In this document: positions 1,195 through 17,951 of the stretch, in pieces
How positions within the stretch are numbered: position 1 is the first letter of the stretch
How the letters are laid out: each line of letters starts with the position of its first letter
Assembly: GCA_016699935.1 (NCBI GenBank)
Contig: CP064992.1
Span: 120,001 to 152,000 of the forward strand
Reading direction: 5' to 3'
DNA length: 32,000 bases
From: Candidatus Saccharimonadota bacterium
GTDB lineage: Bacteria; Patescibacteriota; Saccharimonadia; Saccharimonadales; UBA4665
Notes under the pieces: model-generated
Seen by the model: the letters and a program-made list of their open reading frames with translations, nothing else
What the model was told of the DNA's origin: nothing
Databases searched by the model: none
Made by a program: the position numbers and the translations under genes

Positions 1195-2118
1195 CCTACT
1201 TTTTAGTGTGATTGTTTTCAAATCGCAACTACCGAATTTCAGCGAGGTTTTGGCCCGGGCCATCTACAAAAACAGCAACTATTTACCGAGAGTGACTTGC
1301 TAGAAGAATGGCGAGAAGAACGGCTGAACAAAACCAAGTCGAATCTTGTCGGTCAACTGATGCTTTTAACGGAGTAGTTTTGGCATCGGGTGCTGTATGT
1401 AGTTACCTACTAGCCAGACGAACGCTACGACCTGTCGAGGAAGCTATGGAAGCACAGTCGCGGTTCAGTAGTGATGCTGCCCATGAACTGCGTACCCCAC
1501 TGACCATCATGCAGTCTGAAATAGAAGTCGGGTTGCGCGATAAAAAAGCAACCAAACAGTCACATAACGAGCTCCTAGCAAGTAGCCTCGACGAGGTGCA
1601 GCGCATGCGTACGCTAACAGATCGCTTGCTACTGCTGGCCAACAACCATGATATGACCCTCCTGCCGACTAATCTAGAAAATGCTGCTATCGAAGCCGTA
1701 AATCATGCCATACCCTTTGGCTCAGGCAAAAAGATTCGTATCGAGAATAGCGTAGGCACTTTGCAAGTTATCGGGAACGCTGATAGCCTCATTGATGTAC
1801 TAGTTATACTGCTAGACAATGCCGTCAAATACAGCCCGGCGAAGTCTACCATCACTCTTTCGGCTAGCGCTAAAGGGCAAACACGCCGAGATGCGAATAA
1901 CTGATAGCGGCGTGGGAATAGCCCCGTCTGATTTACCACATATTTTCGACCGTTTTTACCGGGCAGATGCTTCACGCAGCGCCCAAAACATCGCCGGGCA
2001 TGGCCTGGGCCTATCTATCGCCAAACAAATAGTCACCGCTCACCATGGCCATATCAGTGCGCGACCAAACCATTCTGGCAAAGGCACCACTTTTACCCTC
2101 ACCCTCCCTCTGGCGTGA
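1124..2118 (+). CDS. Sensor histidine kinase, frame-interrupted (at least 3 frame changes)
   Basis: ATG 1124 gives MKHLFHSATLRLTAWYTLILLLISLLFS (TM) up to TAG 1301. Then come frames with LLEEWREERLNKTKSNLVGQLMLL, the H-box SSDAAHELRTPLT (ORF 1308-1904), and the HATPase_c end RFYRAD...[13 protein letters not shown]...[11 protein letters not shown] (ORF 1819-2118). Confidence 0.85.
1996..2108 (+). repeat. Direct repeat copy 1 (3' end of the histidine kinase gene)
   Basis: 113 nt, 109/113 identical to 3673-3785 by my manual alignment. Confidence 0.9.
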
Positions 2119-3847: not shown

Positions 3848-4663
3848 ATGACAAAACCGGGTAAAAATGGCGCTTTACAGGAATCGAGCAAATCCCAGGC
3901 GGATGGCTGCTCGCTTTCGTCATCAAACTAGGCTGGGCAGCCATATTCGGCGGACTCATGCTGGGGGCAATTATTCTCACCAAGTATGTTGAGCTGCCGT
4001 TGTTCGCTCGTTATGACTGGCTCTTTCTGTTTGCGGTTTTCATACAGCTCGCGCTGGTAGCGACCAAGCTTGAGAAACCGCATGAAGTAGTAACTATCCT
4101 TGTTTTTCACTTTGTGGGCTTAGGTATGGAATTGTTTAAAACATCACCTGGCATTGGCTCGTGGGATTACCCGGAAGTTGCTGTGTTTAAGATTGCTACA
4201 GTGCCCCTGTATTCGGGGTTTATGTATGCCGCTGTCGGTAGTTTTATCGCCCGCGCTTGGCGGGTACTGAACCTTGAGTATCGCCCATACCCAAAACGCC
4301 TTTATACCATCCTGCTGGCGGTGGCAATTTTATCTGAACTTTTTCACGCACCACTACGCCTACGACATTCGCTGGCTGCTGTTCGGCGCAACGGTTATGC
4401 TATATGGTCGCACCTGGACCTACTACACAGTGCACACCGTCGAACGACGCATTCCGTTTATCGTCACCGCCTTTTTGTCGGCGTTTTTTGTGTGGGTGGC
4501 CGAAAATATCGGTACGTTCACTAAAAGCTGGCTGTATCCTAATCAGGCAAATGAATGGCAGCTTGTCTCCATACACAAACTCGGCGCTTGGCTCCTCCTC
4601 ATGCTGATTAGCTTCATCATGATTGACCTCCTCCACTACTGCCGTACCCGCCGCAAAACTTAA
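3848..4663 (+). CDS. DUF817-family integral membrane protein, frame-interrupted
   Basis: Joined from the ATG 3848 start plus ORFs 3958-4524 and 4274-4663. These are hydrophobic multi-TM sequences (GWAAIFGGLMLGAIILTKY..., FVWVAENIGTFTKSWLYPNQ). The first shift maps to the A5 run at 3863-3867. Confidence 0.7.
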
Positions 4664-4751: not shown

Positions 4752-4828
4752 GCGCCCTTAGCTCAGCGGATTAGAGCGTCTGTCTTCGGAACAGAAGGTC
4801 GTAGGTTCGAATCCTGCAGGGCGTACCA
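4752..4828 (+). tRNA. tRNA-Arg (anticodon UCG), CCA encoded
   Basis: Manual cloverleaf. Acceptor GCGCCCT/AGGGCGT (G1-U72). D arm GCTC-AGCGGATTA-GAGC. Anticodon arm TCTGT-CTTCGGA-ACAGA (TCG at 34-36). T arm GTAGG-TTCGAAT-CCTGC. Then A-CCA. Confidence 0.95.
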
Positions 4829-4937
4829 TGTAAGATGCTCACCGCAAGGTGGGCATTTTGCATGGTTCGTGCAGTAGATTTAAGCCGGAGACCTGACAGC
4901 GTAAGCTGTTAGAAGTCTTCGAATCCTGCAGGGCGTA
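4823..4937. repeat. Left direct repeat of the island (starts in the tRNA 3' end, ends in a second copy of the tRNA T-loop/acceptor 3' strand)
   Basis: About 115 nt matching 9185-9301, with 3 substitutions and one 2-nt indel. 4918-4941 repeats 4806-4829 (ttcgaatcctgcagggcgtaccat) exactly. It contains hairpins 4835-4856 and 4887-4920 (14 bp with a 2-nt bulge, GTAA loop). Confidence 0.9.
4835..4860 (+). terminator. Rho-independent terminator-like hairpin after tRNA-Arg
   Basis: atgctcacc-GCAA-ggtgggcat (9 bp including one G-U), followed by tttt. Confidence 0.6.
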
Positions 4938-5460
4938 CCATTTCCCAGTTTTTGATAATGCGATGACCGCTTCAAACGGTTCCTTAAGTGTAAATTGCAG
5001 TTTTCACCGTCTAAAGTAGCGCTCGAAAGTATGAAGTCGATAAGGTAGCGTTTTTGCTCTAGTTTCGTACACTCAATGTCAAATAGTTCAACAGCACGGC
5101 TACATACGTCCAGCAAGTAGCTAGCACCAATAACAAATGACTTATCACCCGCACTGTGGTCATGCAAGTCATCAAGTAATTCTTTCTGACGCTTTTCAAT
5201 CTTTTTGACCATACGTTCAAATATTTCATAGCGGGATTTGAATTGCTTGCAGTCTTTGAATAAGTGCTCTAGTTCCTCATATAGCACGTCGAATTTTTCT
5301 GTAGGCGTGTTTTAGTATCAGTATAACGTTCTTGTTCAATGGCACGGTTCTTTTCAATTTCAATTACTAGGCTAGGTATTAGTTTCGTAGGTAGCTGGAT
5401 TGACTTTCATAACTGACGTATCTGGTTAATCAGGGTTTCTTCGTCGAGCCATACGGCACT
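4880..5460 (-). pseudogene. C-terminal fragment of a large serine recombinase-like integrase (decayed)
   Basis: ORF 4880-5287 reads ...SYLLDVCSRAVELFDIECTKLEQKRYLIDFILSSATLDGENCNLHL. The upstream frame reads VWLDEETLINQIRQL-TGA-KSIQLPTKL...IEIEKNRAIEQERYTDTKTRLQK. From memory this resembles the coiled-coil and C-terminal region of large serine recombinases. There is an in-frame TGA at 5407-5409 and a frame change at an A5 run near 5290, and no N-terminal catalytic domain was found. The 3' end abuts the tRNA-derived core repeat. Confidence 0.45.
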
Positions 5461-5948
5461 AAAGATGAGCCCGGCCGCTTACGCTGCCCAGCTCAGACGG
5501 AGCCCAAAGAGAATAGAAAGAGTGTTGCAGAAAGTTAGAGGTTGACGTTAGTGATAGTTGTAAATTTTCGAGAATTTCGAGGTCTACTTACTACAAGTAT
5601 CTAAAGACCGAACCACTGTTCGCAGATAGCATGGTTACCACACAGGACAACGCTAACAAGGTAAGTTTTAATTTTCGTACATATCCCTAGCTCAACTACT
5701 TTCCGTGTACATGATTTCACTAGAAGTGGTGTCAGATAAATGGCGTTAAAGGGTCAAAATCTGGGGAAAATTATATACAACGATGCTCATGACAAGAATT
5801 AGCATTTAGATGAATGGGTTTTATTTGCCTCTAGAAGATCGGAGAGGGGTCTAAATAGCGTTCCACGGCAGGAGTTGATAATGTTCTCATTACCTCTGTT
5901 CAAAGTAAAAGATTAGTCGATATTACTGTAGTATTATATACAATGTAC

Positions 5949-5977
5949 TTTACATAATGTGTGACATTGTGTAATAT
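5949..5977 (+). promoter_or_regulatory. Sigma70-like promoter upstream of the structured RNA and rsr operon
   Basis: TTTACA (5949-5954), 17-nt spacer, TAATAT (5972-5977). Predicted start is near 5984-5986. Confidence 0.5.
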
Positions 5978-5986
5978 AGCGTTGGG

Positions 5987-6047
5987 TAGTGAGAGATTGG
6001 ACTTCTTCGTTCTGAAAGCAAAAGCCGATCTCGCCTTTCTCCCACTA
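5987..6047 (+). other. Structured leader domain A (long-range stem)
   Basis: 5987-5996 (tagtgagaga) pairs with 6038-6047 (tctcccacta): 9 of 10 positions, with one A/C mismatch. Confidence 0.4.
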
Positions 6048-6050
6048 GTT

Positions 6051-6190
6051 CGTTAACAATGTTAGGACACAGTGATGATAGAACTTCCTCGTCTGTTAAA
6101 CGAGTGTTGGCCTTTTGGCCACACTGCTCTTGAGCCATTGCGGCTCAAGGGTTTGTTCTCTCAAGGTTTCTTGTCCTAACATTGTCAACG
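6051..6190 (+). ncRNA. Candidate Y-RNA-like structured RNA (long closing helix plus four-way junction) immediately upstream of rsr
   Basis: Closing helix 6051-6069/6172-6190: 18 Watson-Crick pairs and one A55/C86 mismatch. Internal loop, then stem 6076-6084/6155-6163 (8 of 9). This encloses three hairpins: 6088-6104 (5 bp, 7-nt loop ctgttaa), 6105-6123 (7 bp with a bulge, tttt loop), and 6127-6151 (10 bp including one G-U, 5-nt loop). Strand is uncertain (see findings). Confidence 0.55.
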
Positions 6191-6230
6191 AAAGTGGAGC
6201 TGCCCTCTAATTAATTTACACGGAGGAGTT

Positions 6231-7654
6231 ATGTCTCTTTTCAACAAATCAACTAAATCTAATGTTACTAACTTGGCTGGCGGTAGTGCTTATAAGCAGT
6301 CGCCTGAGAACACCTTAGTATCCATACTTTTAACCAACTTCTTAAAGAATCAGACTTACCGTTCCGGCACTGATGAACTGAAGTCGTTAAAAGATACAAT
6401 AGCGCAGAACGATCCATTGTTTGCAGCTAAAGCAGGTGTGTACGCTCGTAATGAGTTTGGAATGAGGTCCGTAAGTCATGTGCTTGCAGGTGAGCTTGCT
6501 CATATTGTTAAGGGCGAGGCATGGTCTAAGCAGTTCTACGATAAGGTAGTACATCGTCCTGATGACATTACCGAAATTGTTGCTTACTACATGCAAGAGT
6601 ATGGCAAGCCATTACCTAATTCACTTAAAAGGGCTTAGCAAAGTCTTTCGATAAGTTTGATGCCTATCAGCTTGCTAAATATCGAGGCAAGACCAATAAG
6701 ATTTCACTTGTTGACGTTGTCAATTTGGTTCGACCGCGACCAAGCGAGAAAAATAGCGATGCCCTCAAAGCTCTGGTTAATGACGAGTTACGTTCTGAGA
6801 ACACTTGGGAAGCGCGGATTTCTGCTGCTGGTCAAGATACTGAAAAGCGTCGCCTGGTATGGAAAGACCTGCTTGAGACAAACAAATTAGGTTACTTTGC
6901 CTTACTACGCAACCTGCGTAACATCATGACCGATGCACCAGACATGGTAGCTCTAGTGTGCGAGCAGCTGGTAGATGAAAAGCGAATTAAAGGCTCACTC
7001 GTTTTACCTTTCCGCTTTACTTCAGCCATTAAGGAAATCTCTCAGATACCTGAGTCACGCGACGTTATTTCTGCTCTATCTAAGGCTGTCGATATTTCAG
7101 CTCAGAATTGTCCAGAGTTGGACGGCTCAACACTAATTGCTGTAGATACGTCAGGCTCGATGTCTGGTCGTCCATCAGAAATTGCAACTTTGTTTGCAGC
7201 CATGCTGTATAAGAAGAATAGTAAAGCAGACCTGCTACTATTCGACACAGAGTCGCATCCTCTGACACCTAACCCTAACGACTCAGTGATGTCAATTGCA
7301 CAGTCGATGCCATTCCACGGTGGCGGTACAGATTTCAACATCATCTTCGACTACGCACAGAAAGCCTACGATCGAATCATCATACTATCAGACATGCAAG
7401 CATGGTCTGATCAGGGTATGTATGGTTGGTCACAAGGTGGTGGCAATCCTAAGGCTGCATTAGCTGCTTACCGTGACCGTACGGGAGCCGAACCTAAAAT
7501 CTACTCGTTTGATTTACAGGGTTACGGTACGCTTGAGTTTCCTGAGAAGAATGTCTACAGCCTTGCTGGATTTTCTGATAAGGTATTCGACCTCATCAAA
7601 ATTCTCGAAACTGGTAAGAGTATGGTTGACGTTATCAACCAAGTGGAGCTTTAA
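6231..7654 (+). CDS. rsr: Ro60-related protein (TROVE domain plus vWA/MIDAS), single frame interruption
   Basis: ORFs 6231-6638 and 6725-7654 join as ...PLPNSLK / KGLAKSFDKFDAYQLAKYRGKTNKISLVDVVNLVRPRP across the A4/G3 run at 6625-6632. TROVE-like N-terminus: NLAGGSAYK, DPLFAAKAGVYARNEFGMR. vWA MIDAS: LIAVDTSGSMSG. RBS ggagg at 6221-6225. Confidence 0.9.
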
Positions 7655-7657
7655 GTC

Positions 7658-7891
7658 ATGAAGCGAGTGACATTCTATTTAGATGACGATGAATATCGAC
7701 AACTGAAGATCGTACTCGCTATTCATGGCATGAGTGCAAGTGAATGGCTACGTCATGAAATATCACGATATGTTCGTGGTTCAATGCCAAACCTACCCGT
7801 TGATCAACTAGCACGAATGCCACGCATACCCAAAAAACAAAATCGCCCTGTTAAGCCTGATGACTTTGACGAAGACGTTGATTTACAATAG
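7658..7891 (+). CDS. Ribbon-helix-helix (CopG/Arc-like) small DNA-binding protein
   Basis: 77 aa. KRVTFYLDDDEYRQLKIVLAIHGMSASEWLRHEISRYV fits the beta-strand/helix/helix pattern. It starts 3 nt after the rsr stop and ends 19 nt before the rtcB ATG. Confidence 0.7.
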   Translation: MKRVTFYLDDDEYRQLKIVLAIHGMSASEWLRHEISRYVRGSMPNLPVDQLARMPRIPKKQNRPVKPDDFDEDVDLQ

Positions 7892-7910
7892 AACTTGAGG
7901 ATAAATTAAT

Positions 7911-9083
7911 ATGAAGAAAATCACAAAGAAACTATACAACTGGGCTTCTATAATTGACGAAGCCACTAGAGAACAAGCAGAACGAACATCAAAAATGCCG
8001 TTCGTGCTGCCACATCTAGCTTTGATGCCAGACGCACACATGGGAGCTGGTGCAACGGTTGGTTCAGTTATCCCTACAGTCGGTGCGATTATGCCAGCAG
8101 CAGTTGGTGTAGATATTGGCTGTGGAATGATTGCAGTCAAAACACAATTCACTACTAAGGACGTTGGCGATAAAGAATTGTCTGTTTTAAGACACAGTAT
8201 CGAACGCTCTATTCCACTATCGGCCGGTAAGTTTAACGATGCCCTAACGGATTCAGTCAAGCCACGTATTGCTAAGCTAGAAAAAATGGCTGGTAAGCGA
8301 AAAAGCTTCTATGACGGTCTGACCCGTACGAGCTGGACCTTACAATTAGGAACGCTTGGTTCGGGTAATCATTTTATTGAAGTAACAGTGGACGAAGACG
8401 AAACAATATGGCTGTTCTTACACAGTGGTAGTCGTGGTATCGGTAACTCTATTGCCACACACCACATTAAGATAGCTCAAGAATGCATGAAGAAGTGGTA
8501 CATCAATCTTGAAGATGAAGATTTAGCATATTTGGTTGAGGGAACACCAGAGTTTGACCAATACATATTTGACCTTAATTGGGCACAGCACTTCGCACTC
8601 TTGAATCGTGAAGAGATGATGGACAGAGTGGTTAAAGACTTCGAACATTTTATTGGTTCAAAAGTTGTTGAAAAGGAACGTATAAATTGCCATCACAATT
8701 TCACGCAAAAAGAGAATCACATGGGTCGCAAGGTATGGCTGAGTCGAAAAGGTGCTATACAAGCCGATATAGGTCGTAAAGGTTTAATTCCTGGCTCGAT
8801 GGGTACGGCAAGCTATGTTGTTGAGGGTAAGGGCTATGCACCGTCTTATAACTCCGCCCCGCATGGCGCAGGACGTGTTTGGGCTAGACGAGCCGCATCA
8901 AATCACTTTACGATTGAAGACCTAGATAAAGCTATGGTTGGTATCGAATACAATCGATCCGAGGCATTTTTAGATGAAATACCTGCTGCCTATAAGGATA
9001 TTGATGTGGTGATTGAAGACGCTAAAGAGTTAGTTAAGGTCAAGCACACATTCCATCAGATTGTGAATGTTAAAGGCGACTAA
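7911..9083 (+). CDS. rtcB: RNA 3'-phosphate ligase RtcB
   Basis: 390 aa with RtcB hallmark motifs: PDAHMGAGATVGSV, GSGNHFIE, HSGSRGIG, CHHNF, PGSMGTASY, APHGAGR. RBS gagga sits upstream. Confidence 0.95.
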   Translation: MKKITKKLYNWASIIDEATREQAERTSKMPFVLPHLALMPDAHMGAGATVGSVIPTVGAIMPAAVGVDIGCGMIAVKTQFTTKDVGDKELSVLRHSIERSIPLSAGKFNDALTDSVKPRIAKLEKMAGKRKSFYDGLTRTSWTLQLGTLGSGNHFIEVTVDEDETIWLFLHSGSRGIGNSIATHHIKIAQECMKKWYINLEDEDLAYLVEGTPEFDQYIFDLNWAQHFALLNREEMMDRVVKDFEHFIGSKVVEKERINCHHNFTQKENHMGRKVWLSRKGAIQADIGRKGLIPGSMGTASYVVEGKGYAPSYNSAPHGAGRVWARRAASNHFTIEDLDKAMVGIEYNRSEAFLDEIPAAYKDIDVVIEDAKELVKVKHTFHQIVNVKGD

Positions 9084-9184: not shown

Positions 9185-9301
9185 GTACCATGTAAGATGC
9201 TCACCGCAAGGTGGGCATTTTGCATGGTTCGTGCAAGGTAGATTTAAGCCGGAGACCTGACAGCGTAAGCTGTTAGCATTCTTCGAATCCTGCCGGGCGT
9301 A
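9185..9301. repeat. Right direct repeat of the island (diverged third copy of the tRNA 3' end at its end)
   Basis: Matches 4823-4937. It ends ...cttcgaatcctgcCgggcgtaGG, compared with ...cctgcagggcgtacca in the tRNA. Confidence 0.9.
9197..9221 (+). terminator. Terminator-like hairpin within the right repeat (likely ends the rsr-RHH-rtcB transcript)
   Basis: Same atgctcacc-GCAA-ggtgggcat hairpin followed by tttt. No other hairpin was seen between the rtcB stop and this point. Confidence 0.55.
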
Positions 9302-9340
9302 GGTATTATCCACAGGTTTTCCACACCATATAATGCTCGT

Positions 9341-9473
9341 GCTTGCAATGGTTTGTGAGCCGGAGTAGACTAGTAAATACCATCGTTGAGGTGGTCACGG
9401 CCGCAAGGCAGTGTGCGGCAACCAGCAATGGGAACCGCATGAAAAAAGTCCGTCGCAAGACGGACTTTTCATT
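9341..9473 (+). ncRNA. Candidate small RNA (promoter-to-terminator unit), unknown family
   Basis: TATAAT at 9329-9334, with a weak -35 ttatcc at 9306-9311. About 130 nt then run to a strong terminator at 9442-9473. Internal stems include gccgca/tgcggc. The only ORF (9343-9525) reads through two terminators. Confidence 0.3.
9442..9473. terminator. Bidirectional rho-independent terminator
   Basis: aaaagtccgtc-GCAA-gacggactttt, with an A-run before and a T-run after. Confidence 0.8.
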
Positions 9474-9532: not shown

Positions 9533-9954
9533 TTACTTTTTCTTGATAGCGATTTTCTTGGGTGCTGGCAACTCTTTAAAAGGCACAATAACCTTTAGCA
9601 CGCCGTCTTTCATATCACCAGTTATCTTGTCGACATCAGCTACCTTGGGTAGCTGCAAGCGGCGGTAAAAACTACTACTGCTTTCACGTACGACGTACTT
9701 TTTGCTCTTGTCTTTCTCTTGTTCGTGTTTTTCGGCAGAAATCACAAGTGCGTTACCATCGACATGGACGTCGACGTCTTTGTCCTCAAAGTTTGGCAAA
9801 TGTGCCTCGACTACTAGTTGCTTATCGTCTTCCGTATAGACATCTGTGGTCGGTAGTTGCATTCGTTTGGTTGGCATCAGCCAATCGTCCCCAAAAAACT
9901 TCGCTGCATGGCTTGTAGCTGGCTAAAGGGGTCGTAGGTTACTAAGTCACTCAT
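9533..9954 (-). CDS. Small heat-shock protein (Hsp20/alpha-crystallin), one frame interruption
   Basis: ORF 9533-9877 carries the alpha-crystallin domain: VVEAHLPNFEDKDVDVHVDGNALVISAEK...FYRRLQLP...GVLKVIVP. The N-terminus MSDLVTYDPFSQLQAMQRSF starts at ATG 9954 after the RBS aggaggg. The shift lies in the T6/G4 run (plus-strand 9889-9898). Confidence 0.9.
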
Positions 9955-10058: not shown

Positions 10059-10570
10059 TCACAATCGGCTGTGGGCATACACTTCAAATGTGTAGTTTGG
10101 CTCCCCAGTTTTCGGTTTGCCAGGTTCACTTGATAGTAGTTGAAAATCCTGCAGGCGTTGCATAGGATAGAATTTGTCGCAGTCGTAGTTGGCATGAATC
10201 CGCGTGATGTATATCTCATCTGGCTCAACATCATCGTGAATACTGCCGTTCCATACATTTTTGCCGGCTGCTGCCATATCTGCTAGAAAATCTTTCAGCG
10301 AATGGACGATAGTAACGCCCGCTTCATCTGGTAAATCATGGGATGTCAGCACATACAGGTGCCTCCCAGCTGGAGGCCAAGCACTCTGACCTTCACGTTC
10401 CTGAAGCCCTTTTTCATTGCCTGGTACGTACCCCGGCCAATTAGCAGGTTTCCGCCAAAACGCCTGCTCTGTTCGTGAAAGTACGCTAAATCTTCCGGAA
10501 TAAACCATGGTGTCATGCCGTCCTTCGCCATACCACCCATCTCGTCAACAGCCACGATGTCTCGTATCAT
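10059..10570 (-). CDS. folA: Dihydrofolate reductase-like protein, frame-interrupted
   Basis: ORF 10346-10570 reads MIRDIVAVDEMGGMAKDGMTPWFIPEDLAYF...LLIGRGTY. ORF 10059-10508 reads GRHLYVLTS...DEIYITRIHANYDCDKFYP. Order and motifs fit the DHFR fold. Confidence 0.7.
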
Positions 10571-11836
10571 CGCAATTCCTGGTTCGCTTCCCTTAGTTGG
10601 GCGATCAGGAAAAACGAACCGGTAATAACGCCGACATTCTGAACTTGCTTCATGAAAACTGCATAAGCCTCGTCTTGATTAGCAACTAGGCGACATTTCA
10701 CCCCATTTGCCTTTAGTACGCTGACGATTTCACTTGGATCCATGGAAACGATGGGTAAATCCTGCGTTTTCGAGAATGTAGTCACTATTACTTCATCAGC
10801 ATGCTTTGCAAGCAAGGGTGCGATGTCTGCTATTTCTTTCCCCTGTTTGAGAGCGAATAAAACAACCGGGCGTACACCTTTATGTAGTTCGGCAAAACTT
10901 TGCCAAAAAGCCGTCATTTTCTGGCCATTATGCGCCCCCGTCCATAATGACAGTTTTACCTTCTATCGAGCGTATGTCCATCCGTCCTGGCACGTGCACT
11001 GCTTGCGTTTTTGCAACTGTGTCGCATTTAACACTTTTAAATCATCGCGACGAGCTAGCCATTTGTAAGCAGCGTAAGCTAGCAGCCAGTTGCGTTTCTG
11101 GTAATCAGGCATGCCGGCTGGGAATTCACCGCCGTAGGCTTTGGCCAGTCTATCCTGATCAAACGTTAGCAAGTCGGCTCCTTCTTGTTGGCTAACCCAG
11201 AAACGAACCACCTGCATATTCTCTGAGTCTTGAGAGTACATGAGCGCCGTGTTGCCCTCGTGGATAATACCGGCTTTTGGTAAGCTATTTTGCCCAGCGT
11301 GTCGCCAAGCGCTTCCATATGATCATAGCCAATGTCGGTTATGACGCACAGTTTATCAGCGCGCGCCGCTACATTTGTGCTGTCATCTAGCCCGCCCATG
11401 CCGGTCTCGATGACTGCGTAGTCCACATTTTCTTGCTTGAAGACCCAGTAGGCAAAAGCAATCAGCACTTCGAAGCGGCTGGGGTCTCGGGCGTACCTGC
11501 CAGTAACTGTGTGAACTCTTCAAAATATTTGCAGAACTGTTCTTCTGACAAAGGCACACTGTTTATCTGTATGCGCTCATTCATACTGTCGATGTATGGC
11601 GAAATGGTTGACCCGACCTTGCAGCCAGCTGCCGTGAGTAGTGCCGATATATAGTAGGTTGTCGATGTTTTGCCGCTCGTACCAGCTATGTGTACTACCC
11701 GAAGCGCCTTTTCGGGGTGGCCGATATGCGCCATCAGCCGCTCTGTCCGCCCGAGGGTGATGTGCTTGCCGACAGTATGTTTTGATACTGCATCATAGGG
11801 GCGCAGCGCCTTTTCAACCTCAGCAATAGTAGTCAT
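10567..11836 (-). CDS. folC: Folylpolyglutamate synthase/dihydrofolate synthase (Mur-ligase family), fragmented into 4 ORFs
   Basis: Start MTTIAEVEKAL at 11836. P-loop HIAGTSGKTSTT. VIETGMGGLDDSTNV. ITDIGYDHMEALGDTLGKIA. C-terminal ORF 10567-10917. The pieces are 11462-11836, 11166-11468, 10963-11241 and 10567-10917. Confidence 0.8.
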
Positions 11837-11892
11837 TTTCACCCCACTACCATACCACACCTCTGTTAAACGTGCTATAATCCACCTGGTAA

Positions 11893-11969
11893 GCGCGCGT
11901 AGCTCAGCTGGATAGAGCGTTGGTTTCCGGTACCAAAGGTCGGGGTTCAAATCCCTTCGCGCGTACCAT
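11893..11969 (+). tRNA. tRNA-Arg (anticodon CCG), CCA encoded
   Basis: Acceptor GCGCGCG/CGCGCGT (G1-U72). D arm GCTC-AGCTGGATA-GAGC. Anticodon arm TTGGT-TTCCGGT-ACCAA (CCG). T-loop TTCAAAT. Then A-CCA. Confidence 0.9.
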
Positions 11970-16304: not shown

Positions 16305-17951
16305 TTAGGGCTTCACCTTATTCCGCAGTGGTCGAAGATATTGGCGCAGAATAACTGCCTTCTTTTCGCCAACCACTTTGGCGAGCTCCCAGTCACGTGC
16401 CTGCATAACACCGCGCATACTGCCGAAAGTTTTGAGCAGTTTTTTGCGTGTAGCTGGGCCGATGGTGGGAATATCGTCTAGCAGGCTAGCTGTTTGCTGT
16501 TTCACCTTCAGTGTCGAATGGTAGCTTACGGCAAAACGATGCGACTCATCGCGGATGCGCTGTAATAGTTTAACAAGATTAGTATTGTGCGGTAGGTTCA
16601 CCAAAATGAAATCATCTGTCTCAGTCGTGTAACCCCCTAGCTTATGCAGCATCTCCGTGTTAAGAGTCACATTTGATCCGGCACTGTCATCTTGAGCGGA
16701 GGGAACCAAAGCCGAAAGATCCTTTCTAGGTACTAAAGAAGATTCTTCGACTTCGCTCAGAATGACCCGATCCGAAATCAGTGATTTCTTTATAACTATC
16801 TGCTCCTCCCTTTTAGCCAGCCCAATCATCCGCAGCTTGCTCAAGGACAGTCCTTGAGCACCAAGTCTGATAGAGATTTCGTTGCGGGCGCGGATGGCGG
16901 CGTCTAGCTGCCCTTTGCCGCCGTCTATCAGTAGAAGATCGGGCATACCCCAAGCCTTAATATTTTTCTCGCTCAAGCGACGAGTTATGGTTTCGTTCAT
17001 ATTGTAGAAGTCATCGTTTTGCTGGCGCGACATTTTGAATTTGCGGTATTGCCCCTTGTCGCTCACTCCATTGGTGAAAACGACCATACTCGCAACTACA
17101 TTAGTACCCTGCATATGTGATATGTCAAAACCCTCTATACGGCGTGGATATTTTTCTAAGCCGAGTAAATCTACCAGTTCGGTGAGTGCGTGATCTTTGG
17201 AAATATCCAGGAACTCTTTGTCGCTGAAAATGACCTGTTTGCCAAGGTTCTGGAGTGCGAGCATTTGGTTTCGCAACTTCTGCTGCGAGCTCAAAATTTT
17301 GCGATTTGCTCGCAATTTTCATTTCTTTTTCCACCTGGCGAATAATCTTATCACGCTTGCCTTCGATGACGGCAATGAGCTTACGCAAATTTGCCCGATA
17401 CTCCGACAGATTCGTCTTGCCCTCCTCTAACCCGGGGTCTAGACCAAGATGATAATACAAGCTAACGCGTTTTTGCCCAGTTGGCTTGGAATAGGCAAAT
17501 GGAAAGATACGCCGCAGGAGCTTCAGTGCTTGACGCACACTAAAGGTGCTAAAGTACGGTCCATAGTAGCGCGCACCATCGTCGAGCGGCCGTCGCGTAG
17601 TACTCACCGTGGGGTATTCGCTGTCATAATCTATGCGTATGTAGTAGCTCATGGCTTTATCGTCGCGAAGCAAGATGTTGTAGCGCGGCATGTAGCGACG
17701 AATCATTTCAGCCTCAAGAAAAAGTGCCTCGAGCTCGCTCTCCACTTCCATCCAGTCGGTGTCTGCTATCTCGGCAACCAGTGCTTCTGTTTTGGGATCG
17801 CGCCCCGGCTCGCCTGAAAATACTGCCGCACCCGATTCCGCAGCACTGCCGCCTTCCCCACATAAATAATCTCTCCCGCCACATCCTTATGAAAATACAC
17901 CCCCGGGGTTTTGGGTAGAGTCTTTAGTTTATTTATGAGTATGGTTTTCAC
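16305..17951 (-). CDS. uvrC: Excinuclease ABC subunit C, frame-interrupted, with in-frame palindromic insertions
   Basis: GIY-YIG N-terminus: [33 protein letters not shown] (ORF 17766-18020). Middle part: ORF 17125-17751. C-terminal nuclease/HhH: [52 protein letters not shown] (ORF 16305-17315). Confidence 0.9.
16686..16766. repeat. 81-nt inverted-repeat-bounded hairpin module inside the uvrC ORF
   Basis: gtcatcttgagcg (16686-16698) pairs with cgctcagaatgac (16754-16766): 11 WC pairs, 1 G-U, 1 mismatch. Inner hairpin gaaag-atc-ctttc (16714-16726). Translated in-frame as ...[31 protein letters not shown]... Confidence 0.6.
16840..16860. repeat. 21-nt perfect palindrome inside the uvrC ORF, sharing its core with the hairpin at 31043-31084
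   Basis: gctcaagga-cag-tccttgagc. The 16-nt string ggacagtccttgagca recurs at 31059-31074. Confidence 0.7.

What the first reader, a model, noticed from the sequence alone, without database searches (positions are those of the whole stretch)
6231..9083. Compact rsr - ribbon-helix-helix - rtcB operon lacking RtcR, RtcA and archease
The three genes are separated by 3 and 19 nt and sit between their own promoter and a terminator inside the right repeat. In the enterobacterial rsr-yrlBA-rtcBA operon, the sigma54 activator RtcR controls expression and the Y RNAs sit between rsr and rtcB. Here a 77-aa RHH protein occupies that position and the structured RNA lies upstream. No rtcR, rtcA or archease is present in the window. 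This suggests a differently wired, horizontally mobile Ro/RtcB RNA-repair module. The RHH protein could be an autoregulator or the antitoxin-like half of a conflict system.
Basis: partly seen in the sequence, partly recalled or inferred. Interest (0 to 1): 0.8.

Follow-up and report, generated by a model that had tools for sequence, protein, structure and literature searches.

The report
Ro60–RHH–RtcB RNA-repair cassette in Saccharibacteria
A candidate-phylum bacterium (Saccharibacteria) carries a compact RNA-repair gene cassette in which a small DNA-binding protein always follows the Ro60-like gene, while the RNA-joining enzyme after it is swapped between relatives. This is an interesting variant of a known system, not a new kind of system.

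Summary
The three genes are real and spaced as described (gaps of 3 and 19 nt), but rsr is split in this assembly by a 1-nt deletion at an A-run (6627-6630). The split is probably an assembly error. Relatives encode an intact 474-aa Rsr, and at least five housekeeping genes in the window are split in the same way.

The window comes from a Candidatus Saccharibacteria genome. About 15 distinct Saccharimonadales loci keep the same unit:
- a conserved sigma-70-type promoter;
- a roughly 220-nt structured leader with Y-RNA features (21 covarying pairs, a CGAA motif);
- rsr (TROVE + vWA);
- a 77-aa ribbon-helix-helix (RHH) gene (dN/dS 0.03-0.08).

The gene after the RHH varies: RtcB, a Pnkp-like kinase-phosphatase-ligase, RlaP plus an Rnl1-like ligase, or no ligase. 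The constant core is therefore Y RNA-Rsr-RHH, and the ligase is exchangeable.

The RHH family was found only in Saccharimonadales. Alphaproteobacterial rsr genes are followed by an analogous small Cro-like HTH protein.

Most likely the RHH is an RtcR-independent autoregulator whose conserved acidic tail contacts a partner, probably Rsr. This is inferred, not tested.

A Y RNA upstream of rsr and the absence of RtcR, RtcA and archease are ordinary outside enterobacteria. Verdict: a new variant of a known kind, of moderate interest.

The parts
4752..4828 (+). tRNA-Arg (anticodon tcg). Its 3' end is copied in both flanking repeats.
   Evidence: ARAGORN and Rfam. L004 and L008 also have a tRNA-Arg about 440 nt upstream of their cassette.
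4823..4941 (+). Left copy of a roughly 115-nt direct repeat. It holds the tRNA terminator-like hairpin and a second copy of the tRNA-Arg 3' end.
   Evidence: the repeat finder families D1-D3, 95-100% identical to 9185-9305. Alignment A7.
5927..5977 (+). Conserved promoter block and candidate RHH operator. The -35 TTTACA is at 5949-5954 and the -10 TAATAT at 5972-5977. The -35 sits inside the near-palindrome ACTTTAcaTAA(A/T)GT (5947-5960).
   Evidence: Promoter scan. CTTTACATAA is invariant in 8 divergent loci whose synonymous sites are saturated. Nucleotide homology with all relatives begins here. Operator function is inferred, not tested.
5985..6204 (+). Structured 5' leader RNA. It has a 5' hairpin (about 5993-6036) and a Y-RNA-like module (about 6042-6200). 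The module has a long 5'-3' stem (6049-6069 with 6172-6192), an invariant GUCAACGAA (CGAA motif) and variable internal hairpins.
   Evidence: MFE -73 kcal/mol, z = -8.3. RNAalifold gives 67 pairs, 21 with compensatory changes. The covariance model also hits just upstream of rsr in Hymenobacter, Clostridia and Coriobacteriales loci. No Rfam match.
6231..7654 (+). rsr (Ro60 homologue: TROVE ring + vWA with MIDAS DTSGS...T...D). In this assembly it is split into ORFs 6231-6638 and 6725-7654 by a 1-nt deletion at the A-run 6627-6630.
   Evidence: ORF list. Repair and translation. Pfam TROVE 4.6e-24 and vWA_Ro60. Single gap against L015 and L004. Intact 474-481 aa in relatives. Closest solved structure is Thermus phage phiLo Ro60.
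7658..7891 (+). 77-aa ribbon-helix-helix protein. The N-terminal beta-alpha-alpha core (residues 1-42) is nearly invariant. The Pro-rich linker is variable. The C-terminal motif F-[DN]-E-[DN]-[IV]-D-L is conserved.
   Evidence: Homologues at 61-100% identity. Alignment A3. dN/dS 0.03-0.08. AF2 model has mean pLDDT 78 and helices at 10-23 and 27-42. Foldseek hits are almost all RHH proteins: ParG, CopG, Arc, VapB, AtaR, with rmsd 1.1-1.5 A over about 42 residues for ParG, CopG and Arc. Pfam NikA-like and DUF6290 hits are below threshold.
7911..9083 (+). rtcB, a 3'-phosphate/5'-OH RNA ligase of 390 aa, with all catalytic and metal-binding residues aligned to P. horikoshii RtcB.
   Evidence: Pfam RtcB 8.2e-116, profile positions 1-426 of 426. 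The alignment to 1UC2 conserves D95/C98, N202/H203, H234, H329 and H404 (residue roles from my own knowledge).
9185..9305 (+). Right copy of the roughly 115-nt direct repeat. It includes a weak terminator-like hairpin (9199-9216 followed by AUUUUG) and a degenerate copy of the tRNA-Arg 3' end (9282-9305).
   Evidence: the repeat finder and direct reading of the sequence. The terminator scan did not call the hairpin.
9448..9469 (.). Bidirectional intrinsic-terminator hairpin (GUCCGUC-GCAA-GACGGAC, flanked by A6 and U4) between the cassette and the convergent hsp20 gene (9533-9877, - strand).
   Evidence: Direct reading of the sequence. Weak MicX/asX2 Rfam matches align to this hairpin. hsp20 by Pfam.

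Best explanation
This is an RtcR-independent Ro60/Y-RNA RNA-repair cassette typical of Saccharimonadales. One sigma-70-type promoter drives a transcript whose 5' leader folds into a Y-like RNA, followed by rsr, a small RHH gene and rtcB.

By analogy with characterised Ro60 systems, Rsr binds the Y-like RNA stem to form an RNP that handles damaged or misfolded RNAs. RtcB then reseals 2',3'-cyclic-phosphate/5'-OH breaks.

The RHH protein is the dedicated regulator of the cassette. Its dimeric beta-alpha-alpha domain binds an operator overlapping the conserved promoter, as CopG and Arc do. Its disordered tail, with the conserved FDEDxDL end, contacts a protein partner. That partner is most likely Rsr, the only protein constant in all versions. 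Expression could thereby be coupled to the state of the RNP.

Shown: gene identities, conservation, purifying selection, RNA structure with covariation, promoter conservation and ligase swapping.
Inferred: co-transcription, DNA binding by the RHH, the tail-Rsr contact and any damage-responsive derepression.

The rsr frameshift in this window is most likely an assembly error.
For: Gene identities:
- TROVE+vWA and RtcB domains.
- RtcB catalytic residues conserved.
- Rsr is closest to phage phiLo Ro60, which binds upstream Y-like RNAs carrying CGAA motifs (PMC12135203).

Conserved unit:
- Rsr-RHH adjacency (gaps of 3-19 nt) holds in every one of about 15 distinct Saccharimonadales loci, whatever gene follows: RtcB, Pnkp-type, RlaP+Rnl1-type or none.
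- Nucleotide homology with relatives starts at the promoter and ends at the rtcB or RHH stop.

The RHH gene is real: dN/dS 0.03-0.08 with saturated dS.

RHH fold.

Promoter block: the invariant CTTTACATAA lies inside a near-palindrome.

Leader RNA: 21 compensatory pairs. The covariance model finds related RNAs directly upstream of rsr in other phyla.

Analogy: seven alphaproteobacterial rsr loci carry a conserved Cro-like HTH protein overlapping or abutting the rsr stop, ahead of Pnkp.

Frameshift as artefact: one gap at an A-run. DUF817, HisK, DHFR and UvrC are also split, and a FolC-like Mur-ligase gene appears fragmented too.
Against: - There is no experimental or structural evidence that the RHH binds DNA, and no clear repeated operator motif conserved in all loci. 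The palindrome is imperfect in the window, L009, L012 and L014.
- Pfam and NCBIfam hits for the RHH are below threshold, and no PDB sequence match was found.
- The tail-Rsr contact is pure inference.
- Rsr-RtcB pairs in Christensenellales-type genomes work without any small protein (L030-L032), so the RHH is not intrinsically needed.
- The rsr frameshift could be genuine, in which case this copy is decaying.
- The key comparative paper (Burroughs & Aravind 2016) could not be read, so the RHH association may already be described.
Confidence: 0.55

Rival explanations
1. The RHH is a non-transcriptional subunit or adaptor of the Rsr RNP. It dimerises through the RHH fold and uses its tail to tether Rsr, for example at the vWA MIDAS site, to another factor such as a nuclease, the ligase or the ribosome. 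It may also modulate Y-RNA binding. It would not act on DNA.
For: - Tight translational-coupling-like spacing with rsr in all loci.
- A conserved C-terminal short linear motif separated from the core by a variable Pro-rich linker.
- The Rsr MIDAS residues are invariant, and the MIDAS ligand of Ro60 is unknown (PMC12135203).
- The top Foldseek hit, ParG, uses a flexible tail to regulate a partner protein (ParG function from my own knowledge).
Against: - Almost all characterised RHH domains bind DNA.
- The promoter block is conserved well beyond what sigma-70 recognition needs.
- The analogous proteins after rsr in Alphaproteobacteria are HTH DNA binders.
- The two roles are not mutually exclusive.
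Confidence: 0.2
2. The RHH is the antitoxin-like half of a conflict (toxin-antitoxin or abortive-infection-type) module, neutralising a toxic activity encoded next to it.
For: An RHH N-terminus with a disordered C-terminus is the classic type II antitoxin architecture. Many Foldseek hits are antitoxins: VapB, AtaR, TacA, ParD, DinJ. The cassette sits in variable genomic contexts.
Against: - No toxin-family gene is adjacent. The neighbours are Rsr and RNA-repair ligases in all variants.
- PADLOC finds nothing for the RHH or Rsr, and only one weak sub-threshold hit (LeoB, E 0.002) for RtcB.
- The downstream gene changes between unrelated enzyme families while the RHH tail motif stays constant. 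This argues against the downstream gene being the neutralised partner.
Confidence: 0.1
3. In this particular genome the cassette is decaying. The rsr frameshift is real, Rsr is not made, and RHH and rtcB persist as remnants.
For: rsr is split into two frames with a premature stop at 6636-6638. A 740-nt insertion (5054-5795) relative to L015 and repeat-flanked architecture suggest local rearrangement.
Against: - The lesion is a single missing base at a homopolymer, with no other disabling change. The rest of rsr is 96% identical in protein to intact L015 Rsr.
- Core genes (UvrC, DHFR, HisK, DUF817, and apparently a FolC-like Mur-ligase gene) are split in the same way in this window. This points to systematic indel errors in the assembly.
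Confidence: 0.12

Closest known systems
Salmonella enterica rsr-yrlBA-rtcBA operon (RtcR/sigma-54 regulated)
   Same: Combines a Ro60 homologue, Y RNA and the RtcB ligase in one operon, implying an RNP-assisted RNA-repair function (PMC7790460, PMC4201824).
   Different: - No RtcR, no RtcA and no sigma-54 wiring.
- The Y-like RNA is in the 5' leader, not between rsr and rtcB.
- A dedicated RHH gene lies between rsr and rtcB.
- Rsr is only distantly related (NCBIfam Rsr equivalog score 17 against a cut-off of 900).
Y RNA-Rsr loci of Deinococcus radiodurans, Mycobacterium smegmatis and Thermus phage phiLo
   Same: - Y RNAs are encoded upstream of rsr on the same strand and, in M. smegmatis, are processed from a single precursor.
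- They have a 5'-3' stem with a CGAA motif (PMC4201824, PMC12135203).
- phiLo Ro60 is the closest solved structure (E 6e-28).
   Different: Those descriptions mention no RHH and no adjacent ligase. The RNA here is not detected by any Rfam model. It has an extra 5' hairpin, and the whole leader closes on itself.
CopG/Arc/ParG-type RHH repressors and RHH type II antitoxins
   Same: Predicted beta-alpha-alpha fold superposes at 1.1-1.5 A over about 42 residues on CopG, Arc and ParG. Like CopG, its candidate site overlaps the -35 box. Like antitoxins, it has a disordered C-terminal partner-binding tail.
   Different: No significant sequence match to any curated RHH family. It is not next to a toxin or plasmid replication gene. 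It is a narrow family: three 50%-identity clusters in 1.84 billion representatives.
Bacterial Pnkp(/Hen1) and RlaP-associated RNA-ligase repair systems
   Same: In sister loci the slot after the RHH is filled by a kinase-phosphatase-Rnl1-type ligase, or by RlaP plus an Rnl1-type ligase. These are the 5'-P/3'-OH counterparts of RtcB.
   Different: This window carries RtcB instead. No Hen1 was seen next to the Saccharimonadales Pnkp-type genes.
Alphaproteobacterial rsr - small HTH - (207 aa) - Pnkp loci (found here, e.g. Caulobacter sp. Root655, L078)
   Same: A small DNA-binding protein of about 80 aa with an acidic tail immediately follows rsr (-3 to +8 nt), ahead of an RNA-repair ligase.
   Different: Cro-like HTH fold instead of RHH, with no sequence homology. 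Rsr is only about 30% identical.

Membership tests
Ro60/Rsr (TROVE + vWA) | TROVE (HEAT-repeat ring) domain | tested here: met
   Pfam TROVE 4.6e-24, above the cut-off, on the frame-repaired protein. Full-length profile match to phage phiLo Ro60, and partial (C-terminal) matches to Xenopus Ro60 and D. radiodurans Rsr.
Ro60/Rsr (TROVE + vWA) | C-terminal vWA domain with MIDAS motif (DxSxS...T...D) | tested here: met
   Pfam vWA_Ro60 scores 28.0 against a cut-off of 27.7. D306, S308, S310, T367 and D388 are invariant in 37 homologues.
Ro60/Rsr (TROVE + vWA) | Intact open reading frame in this window | tested here: not met
   Split at 6627-6638 by a 1-nt deletion. Probably an assembly artefact.
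Ro60/Rsr (TROVE + vWA) | Binds a Y RNA | not testable with these tools
   Needs RNP purification or EMSA.
RtcB RNA ligase | Full-length RtcB domain | tested here: met
   Pfam PF01139, 8.2e-116, profile positions 1-426 of 426.
RtcB RNA ligase | Metal-binding Asp/Cys/His residues and the guanylylated His | tested here: met
   Alignment to P. horikoshii RtcB (1UC2): D95, C98, N202, H203, H234, H329 and H404 are all conserved. Residue roles are from my own knowledge.
Ribbon-helix-helix (CopG/Arc/MetJ) superfamily | N-terminal beta-strand followed by two helices, superposable on known RHH domains | tested here: met
   The AF2 model has an extended segment at residues 1-9 and helices at 10-23 and 27-42. 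Foldseek hits are almost all RHH proteins, with rmsd 1.1-1.5 A over about 42 residues for ParG, CopG and Arc. E-values are weak because the domain is short.
Ribbon-helix-helix (CopG/Arc/MetJ) superfamily | Significant match to a curated RHH sequence family | tested here: inconclusive
   NikA-like E 0.002 and DUF6290 E 0.04, both below the gathering score. Profile search finds generic 44-66-aa CopG-like proteins at E 1e-7 to 1e-3.
Ribbon-helix-helix (CopG/Arc/MetJ) superfamily | Sequence-specific DNA binding as a dimer | not testable with these tools
   Candidate site 5927-5977 is proposed from conservation only.
Bacterial Y RNA (YrlA/Yrl-like) | Encoded next to rsr on the same strand | tested here: met
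   The RNA ends 27 nt before the rsr ATG in all loci with upstream sequence. Related covariance-model hits lie upstream of rsr in other phyla.
Bacterial Y RNA (YrlA/Yrl-like) | Long stem formed by the 5' and 3' ends enclosing a large internal loop or module, with a CGAA motif | tested here: met
   Stem 6049-6069 with 6172-6192, and invariant GUCAACGAA. 21 pairs show compensatory changes. Criteria as used in PMC12135203 and PMC4201824.
Bacterial Y RNA (YrlA/Yrl-like) | tRNA-like domain (T-arm and D-arm mimic) | tested here: inconclusive
   The internal hairpin reads GGTTCGAAYCC-like in L012 and L001. The window copy has other loops (GCCUUUUGGC, GAGCCAUUGCGGCUC).
Bacterial Y RNA (YrlA/Yrl-like) | Match to an Rfam Y-RNA covariance model | tested here: not met
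   No Y_RNA or YrlA hit, even at E <= 10.
Enterobacterial RtcR-regulated rsr-yrlBA-rtcBA operon | Divergent rtcR (sigma-54 enhancer-binding protein), plus rtcA, plus Y RNAs between rsr and rtcB | tested here: not met
   No Sigma54_activat, RTC or archease domain in the ORFs scanned across the window. The RNA lies upstream of rsr. So it works like that operon but is not a member of that architecture.
Type II toxin-antitoxin module | Adjacent toxin gene neutralised by the RHH protein | tested here: not met
   The neighbours are Rsr and RNA-repair enzymes in every variant. PADLOC finds nothing for the RHH or Rsr, and only a weak sub-threshold RtcB hit (LeoB, E 0.002).
tRNA-inserted genomic island | Flanking direct repeats that include the tRNA 3' end | tested here: met
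   4823-4941 against 9185-9305, each with a copy of the tRNA-Arg 3' end.
tRNA-inserted genomic island | Integrase or recombinase gene inside the element | tested here: not met
   The only extra ORF (4880-5287, - strand) has no family hit. No phage or viral relatives were found.

The most novel reading that the evidence does not exclude
Rsr and the RHH form a sensor-regulator pair that replaces RtcR. The RHH tail (FDEDxDL) docks on Rsr, possibly on the vWA MIDAS site whose ligand has never been identified. When Rsr or the Y RNP becomes occupied by damaged or misfolded RNA, the RHH is released from the operator or sequestered away from it, and the cassette is induced. Small HTH (and possibly AbrB-like) proteins in the same position in other phyla would be analogous solutions. 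That would reveal a general but unrecognised 'Ro60 + small DNA-binding partner' regulatory principle and the first physiological MIDAS ligand of a Ro60 protein.
Probability: 0.15. Interest if true: 0.7.

Novelty: new variant of a known kind. Interest (0 to 1): 0.45.

Why it matters
Ro60/Y-RNA systems are medically famous, because Ro60 is a lupus autoantigen, but they remain mechanistically obscure. How bacteria outside the enterobacteria control them is unknown, and so is the role of the Ro60 vWA/MIDAS site.

This cassette offers three things:
- A minimal version in ultra-small CPR genomes, with the parts in one roughly 3.2-kb unit.
- A natural experiment showing that the Ro60 module is independent of the chemistry of the ligase (3'-P against 5'-P pathways). 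This supports the view of Ro60 as a generic RNA-repair platform.
- A small, tightly linked RHH partner that could be tested directly as regulator and as Rsr ligand.

It also flags an unannotated Y-like RNA family for Patescibacteria.

Tried and rejected
- **Rfam.** Gathering-threshold and E<=10 scans gave no Y RNA or YrlA match.
- **Programmed frameshift in rsr.** Rejected. The site (CUU AAA AGG) is not a slippery heptamer for -1. A +1 shift runs into a stop. Relatives are in frame with a longer A-run.
- **PDB sequence search with the RHH profile.** Nothing significant.
- **PADLOC defence models.** Nothing for the RHH or Rsr. RtcB gave only one weak sub-threshold hit (LeoB, E 0.002).
- **Phage origin.** The RHH has no hit in 50,697 phage genomes. 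It has only one weak partial hit in IMG/VR.
- **Metagenome scan with the RHH.** Only 2 extra loci.
- **Burroughs & Aravind 2016 (NAR 44:8525).** This is the paper most likely to have catalogued Ro-linked genes. It is not held in the library, so prior description of the RHH link could not be checked.
- **Full-text searches** for Saccharibacteria+RtcB and for TROVE+Pnkp+RtcB+operon found nothing relevant.
- **L019 53-aa ORF after rsr.** It looks AbrB/SpoVT-like by eye, but Pfam gave no hit, so it stays a lead only.
- **Shared operator repeat across all loci.** Not found. Only the CTTTACATAA near-palindrome and an upstream GTAGTATTA block are conserved.


Full report
**Observation**

ORF listing and direct reading confirm a 77-aa ORF at 7658-7891 and a 390-aa ORF at 7911-9083 on the + strand. 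An rsr-like reading frame ends at 7654, so the gaps are 3 and 19 nt as reported. Pfam identifies RtcB (8e-116, full profile) and, weakly, RHH families (NikA-like, DUF6290) for the small ORF.

The rsr gene is not intact. It is split into 6231-6638 and 6725-7654 in different frames. Translation across the junction and alignment with the 93%-identical locus L015 and with L004 show a single missing base at the A-run 6627-6630. Re-reading one A gives a 474-aa TROVE + vWA_Ro60 protein, the same length as in relatives.

The site is not a plausible programmed-frameshift signal. DUF817, a histidine kinase, DHFR and UvrC in the same window are also split into adjacent overlapping ORFs that hit consecutive parts of one Pfam family. 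A FolC-like Mur-ligase gene appears fragmented too. I therefore read the rsr frameshift as an assembly indel error (about 85%) rather than a real pseudogene.

**Source and conservation**

The RHH protein is 100% identical to a hypothetical protein of a Candidatus Saccharibacteria MAG on a 1.23-Mb contig. It has 21 further homologue clusters at 61-95% identity.

I looked up the contigs that encode these homologues. I also scanned GTDB genomes and metagenomes. Together these gave about 15 distinct Saccharimonadales loci. In every one the RHH gene follows an intact rsr (469-481 aa where complete) with a gap of 3-19 nt.

The RHH ORF is under strong purifying selection (dN/dS 0.03-0.08, synonymous sites saturated). 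Its first 42 residues are almost invariant. It has a variable Pro-rich linker and a conserved C-terminal F-[DN]-E-[DN]-[IV]-D-L motif.

An AF2 model (mean pLDDT 78) has an extended N-terminus and helices at 10-23 and 27-42. Foldseek returns almost only RHH proteins: ParG, CopG, Arc, AmrZ and the antitoxins VapB, AtaR, TacA and ParD. For ParG, CopG and Arc the rmsd is 1.1-1.5 A over about 42 residues.

**The ligase is exchangeable and the Rsr-RHH pair is not**

The gene after the RHH varies among loci:
- RtcB in the window, L001, L004/8/18, L015-17 and L090.
- A 684-753-aa kinase + metallophosphatase + Rnl1-type ligase (Pnkp-like) in L009-12, L014, L029, L092, L094 and L095.
- RlaP + an Rnl1-type ligase in L096.
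- An unrelated gene after a 570-nt gap in L093.

In a rough NJ tree of Rsr, the RtcB-type loci are not monophyletic: L001 groups with Pnkp-type L009. RtcB itself co-diverges with Rsr (87-93% identity). More than one replacement is therefore likely. L015 and L016 add a LigT/2H phosphoesterase downstream.

**Upstream RNA and promoter**

A sigma-70-like promoter (TTTACA-17-TAATAT, 5949-5977) is conserved in all loci. The 10-mer CTTTACATAA is invariant and forms the near-palindrome ACTTTAcaTAAAGT. A further conserved block, GTAGTATTA, lies at about -55. Nucleotide homology between the window and every relative begins at about 5908-5950, except in the closest relative L015-17, where it extends upstream to 5796. 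It ends at the rtcB or RHH stop. This defines the cassette.

The roughly 220-nt leader (5985-6204) folds with z = -8.3. Across 8 divergent loci it has 67 consensus pairs, 21 of them with compensatory changes. Its architecture is a long 5'-3' stem with invariant GUCAACGAA (a CGAA motif) enclosing variable hairpins. Some of these read GGUUCGAAYCC in relatives. This matches the criteria used for bacterial and phage Y-like RNAs (PMC4201824, PMC12135203), although no Rfam model matches.

A covariance model built from these sequences also hits directly upstream of rsr in Hymenobacter, Clostridia and Coriobacteriales loci.

Y RNAs upstream of rsr are the rule in Deinococcus, Mycobacterium and phage phiLo, so that part of the finding is ordinary. 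phiLo Ro60 is the closest solved structure.

**Distribution of the RHH**

An HMM of the RHH hits only Saccharimonadales among 71 Rsr loci from many phyla. An exhaustive profile search finds just three 50%-identity clusters of the full-length family, plus generic short CopG-like proteins and low-complexity Pro-rich-repeat proteins. The two divergent clusters again lie in Rsr-RHH-ligase contexts.

The nearest non-Saccharibacterial Rsr proteins (about 50% identity) lack both the RHH and an adjacent ligase. Christensenellales-type genomes have rsr directly abutting rtcB.

Seven alphaproteobacterial loci, however, carry a conserved Cro-like HTH protein of about 80 aa with an acidic tail. It overlaps or abuts the rsr stop and lies ahead of a 1033-aa Pnkp. 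This is an analogous arrangement built on a different DNA-binding fold.

**Mechanism**

Best explanation (0.55): an RtcR-independent Y RNA-Rsr-RHH-ligase cassette in which the RHH is the autoregulator. It would bind the promoter-overlapping site as CopG does, and its tail would contact Rsr.

Rivals:
- RHH as a non-DNA-binding RNP adaptor (0.2).
- Antitoxin-like conflict component (0.1). No toxin is present, and PADLOC finds nothing for the RHH or Rsr.
- A genuinely decaying copy (0.12).

None of the functional steps could be tested.

**Mobility**

In the window the cassette is bracketed by roughly 115-nt direct repeats, each ending in a copy of the tRNA-Arg 3' end. Flanking genes differ among loci. 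GC content is lower than in the flanks.

Against mobility: there is no integrase, and there are no phage or viral relatives. A tRNA-Arg is also adjacent in L004 and L008, and two tRNA-3'-end-like copies lie upstream of the cassette in L016. Site-specific insertion and vertical inheritance therefore cannot be separated.

**Novelty**

The system is a new variant of a known kind (Ro60/Y RNA/RNA-ligase repair operons). The points I could not find described are the Saccharimonadales-specific RHH partner, the invariant Rsr-RHH core with swappable ligases, and the Y-like leader RNA.

The most relevant comparative paper (Burroughs & Aravind 2016) could not be read. A later review cites that paper for Ro60 serving as a platform for RNA repair with a tRNA-like partner (PMC7824862). 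Interest: 0.45.

Noticed in passing
window 4823-4941 and 9185-9305 (tRNA-Arg 4752-4828): Roughly 115-nt direct repeats (95-100% identical) bracket the cassette. Each contains a terminator-like hairpin and ends in a copy of the tRNA-Arg 3' end, giving three copies of the T-arm/acceptor 3' half in all. No integrase lies between them. L004 and L008 have a tRNA-Arg(gcg) about 440 nt upstream of their cassette, and L016 has two tRNA-3'-end-like copies upstream.
   Followed up: partly
window 1308-2118, 3958-4663, 10059-10570, 10567-11950, 16305-17751: At least five housekeeping genes are each split into overlapping ORFs covering consecutive parts of one Pfam family: histidine kinase, DUF817, DHFR, a FolC-like Mur ligase and UvrC. 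This indicates frequent indel errors in the assembly, or less likely widespread pseudogenisation.
   Followed up: partly
window 5054-5795 and ORF 4880-5287 (- strand): A roughly 740-nt stretch is absent from the otherwise collinear relative L015-17. It is mostly non-coding. The 135-aa ORF on the minus strand that overlaps the left repeat has no family match.
   Followed up: partly
L066, L069, L075, L077, L078, L080, L087 (alphaproteobacterial Rsr loci), about 8311-8600 in most: A conserved Cro-like HTH protein of about 80 aa with an acidic tail starts -3 to +8 nt from the rsr stop. In L078 it is followed by a 207-aa protein of unknown family and a 1033-aa Pnkp (kinase-phosphatase-ligase). Some tails contain [FY]D[EQ]L, reminiscent of the FDEDxDL end of the Saccharibacterial RHH.
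   Followed up: partly
L019:2990-3151: In a MAG labelled Nanoarchaeia, a 53-aa ORF that starts 1 nt after rsr looks like an AbrB/SpoVT/MazE-type swapped-hairpin domain (KVSQYGDSKVIRIPQ...). Pfam gave no hit.
   Followed up: partly
L096:2754-6840 and L093:1-2719: Two further cassette variants: Rsr-RHH-RlaP (PF10127)-Rnl1-like ligase-?, and Rsr-RHH followed after 570 nt by a 334-aa protein with only weak PADLOC PDC-S32 similarity and no ligase.
   Followed up: partly
window 5993-6036: A conserved 5' hairpin (GAGAUUGG...CCGAUCUC, with covariation) is followed by an invariant CUUUUCUCCC. It precedes the Y-like module, and the first six leader bases pair with 6199-6204, closing the whole leader. 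It could be a second Y-like module, a processing signal or an attenuator.
   Followed up: no
window 9533-9877 (- strand) and 9448-9469: A convergent hsp20 (alpha-crystallin) gene shares a bidirectional terminator hairpin with the cassette's downstream region.
   Followed up: no
L015:3809-4435, L016:4043-4612: In the closest relatives, a LigT/2H (2',5' RNA ligase / cyclic phosphodiesterase) gene follows rtcB. In the window this position is taken by the right repeat.
   Followed up: no
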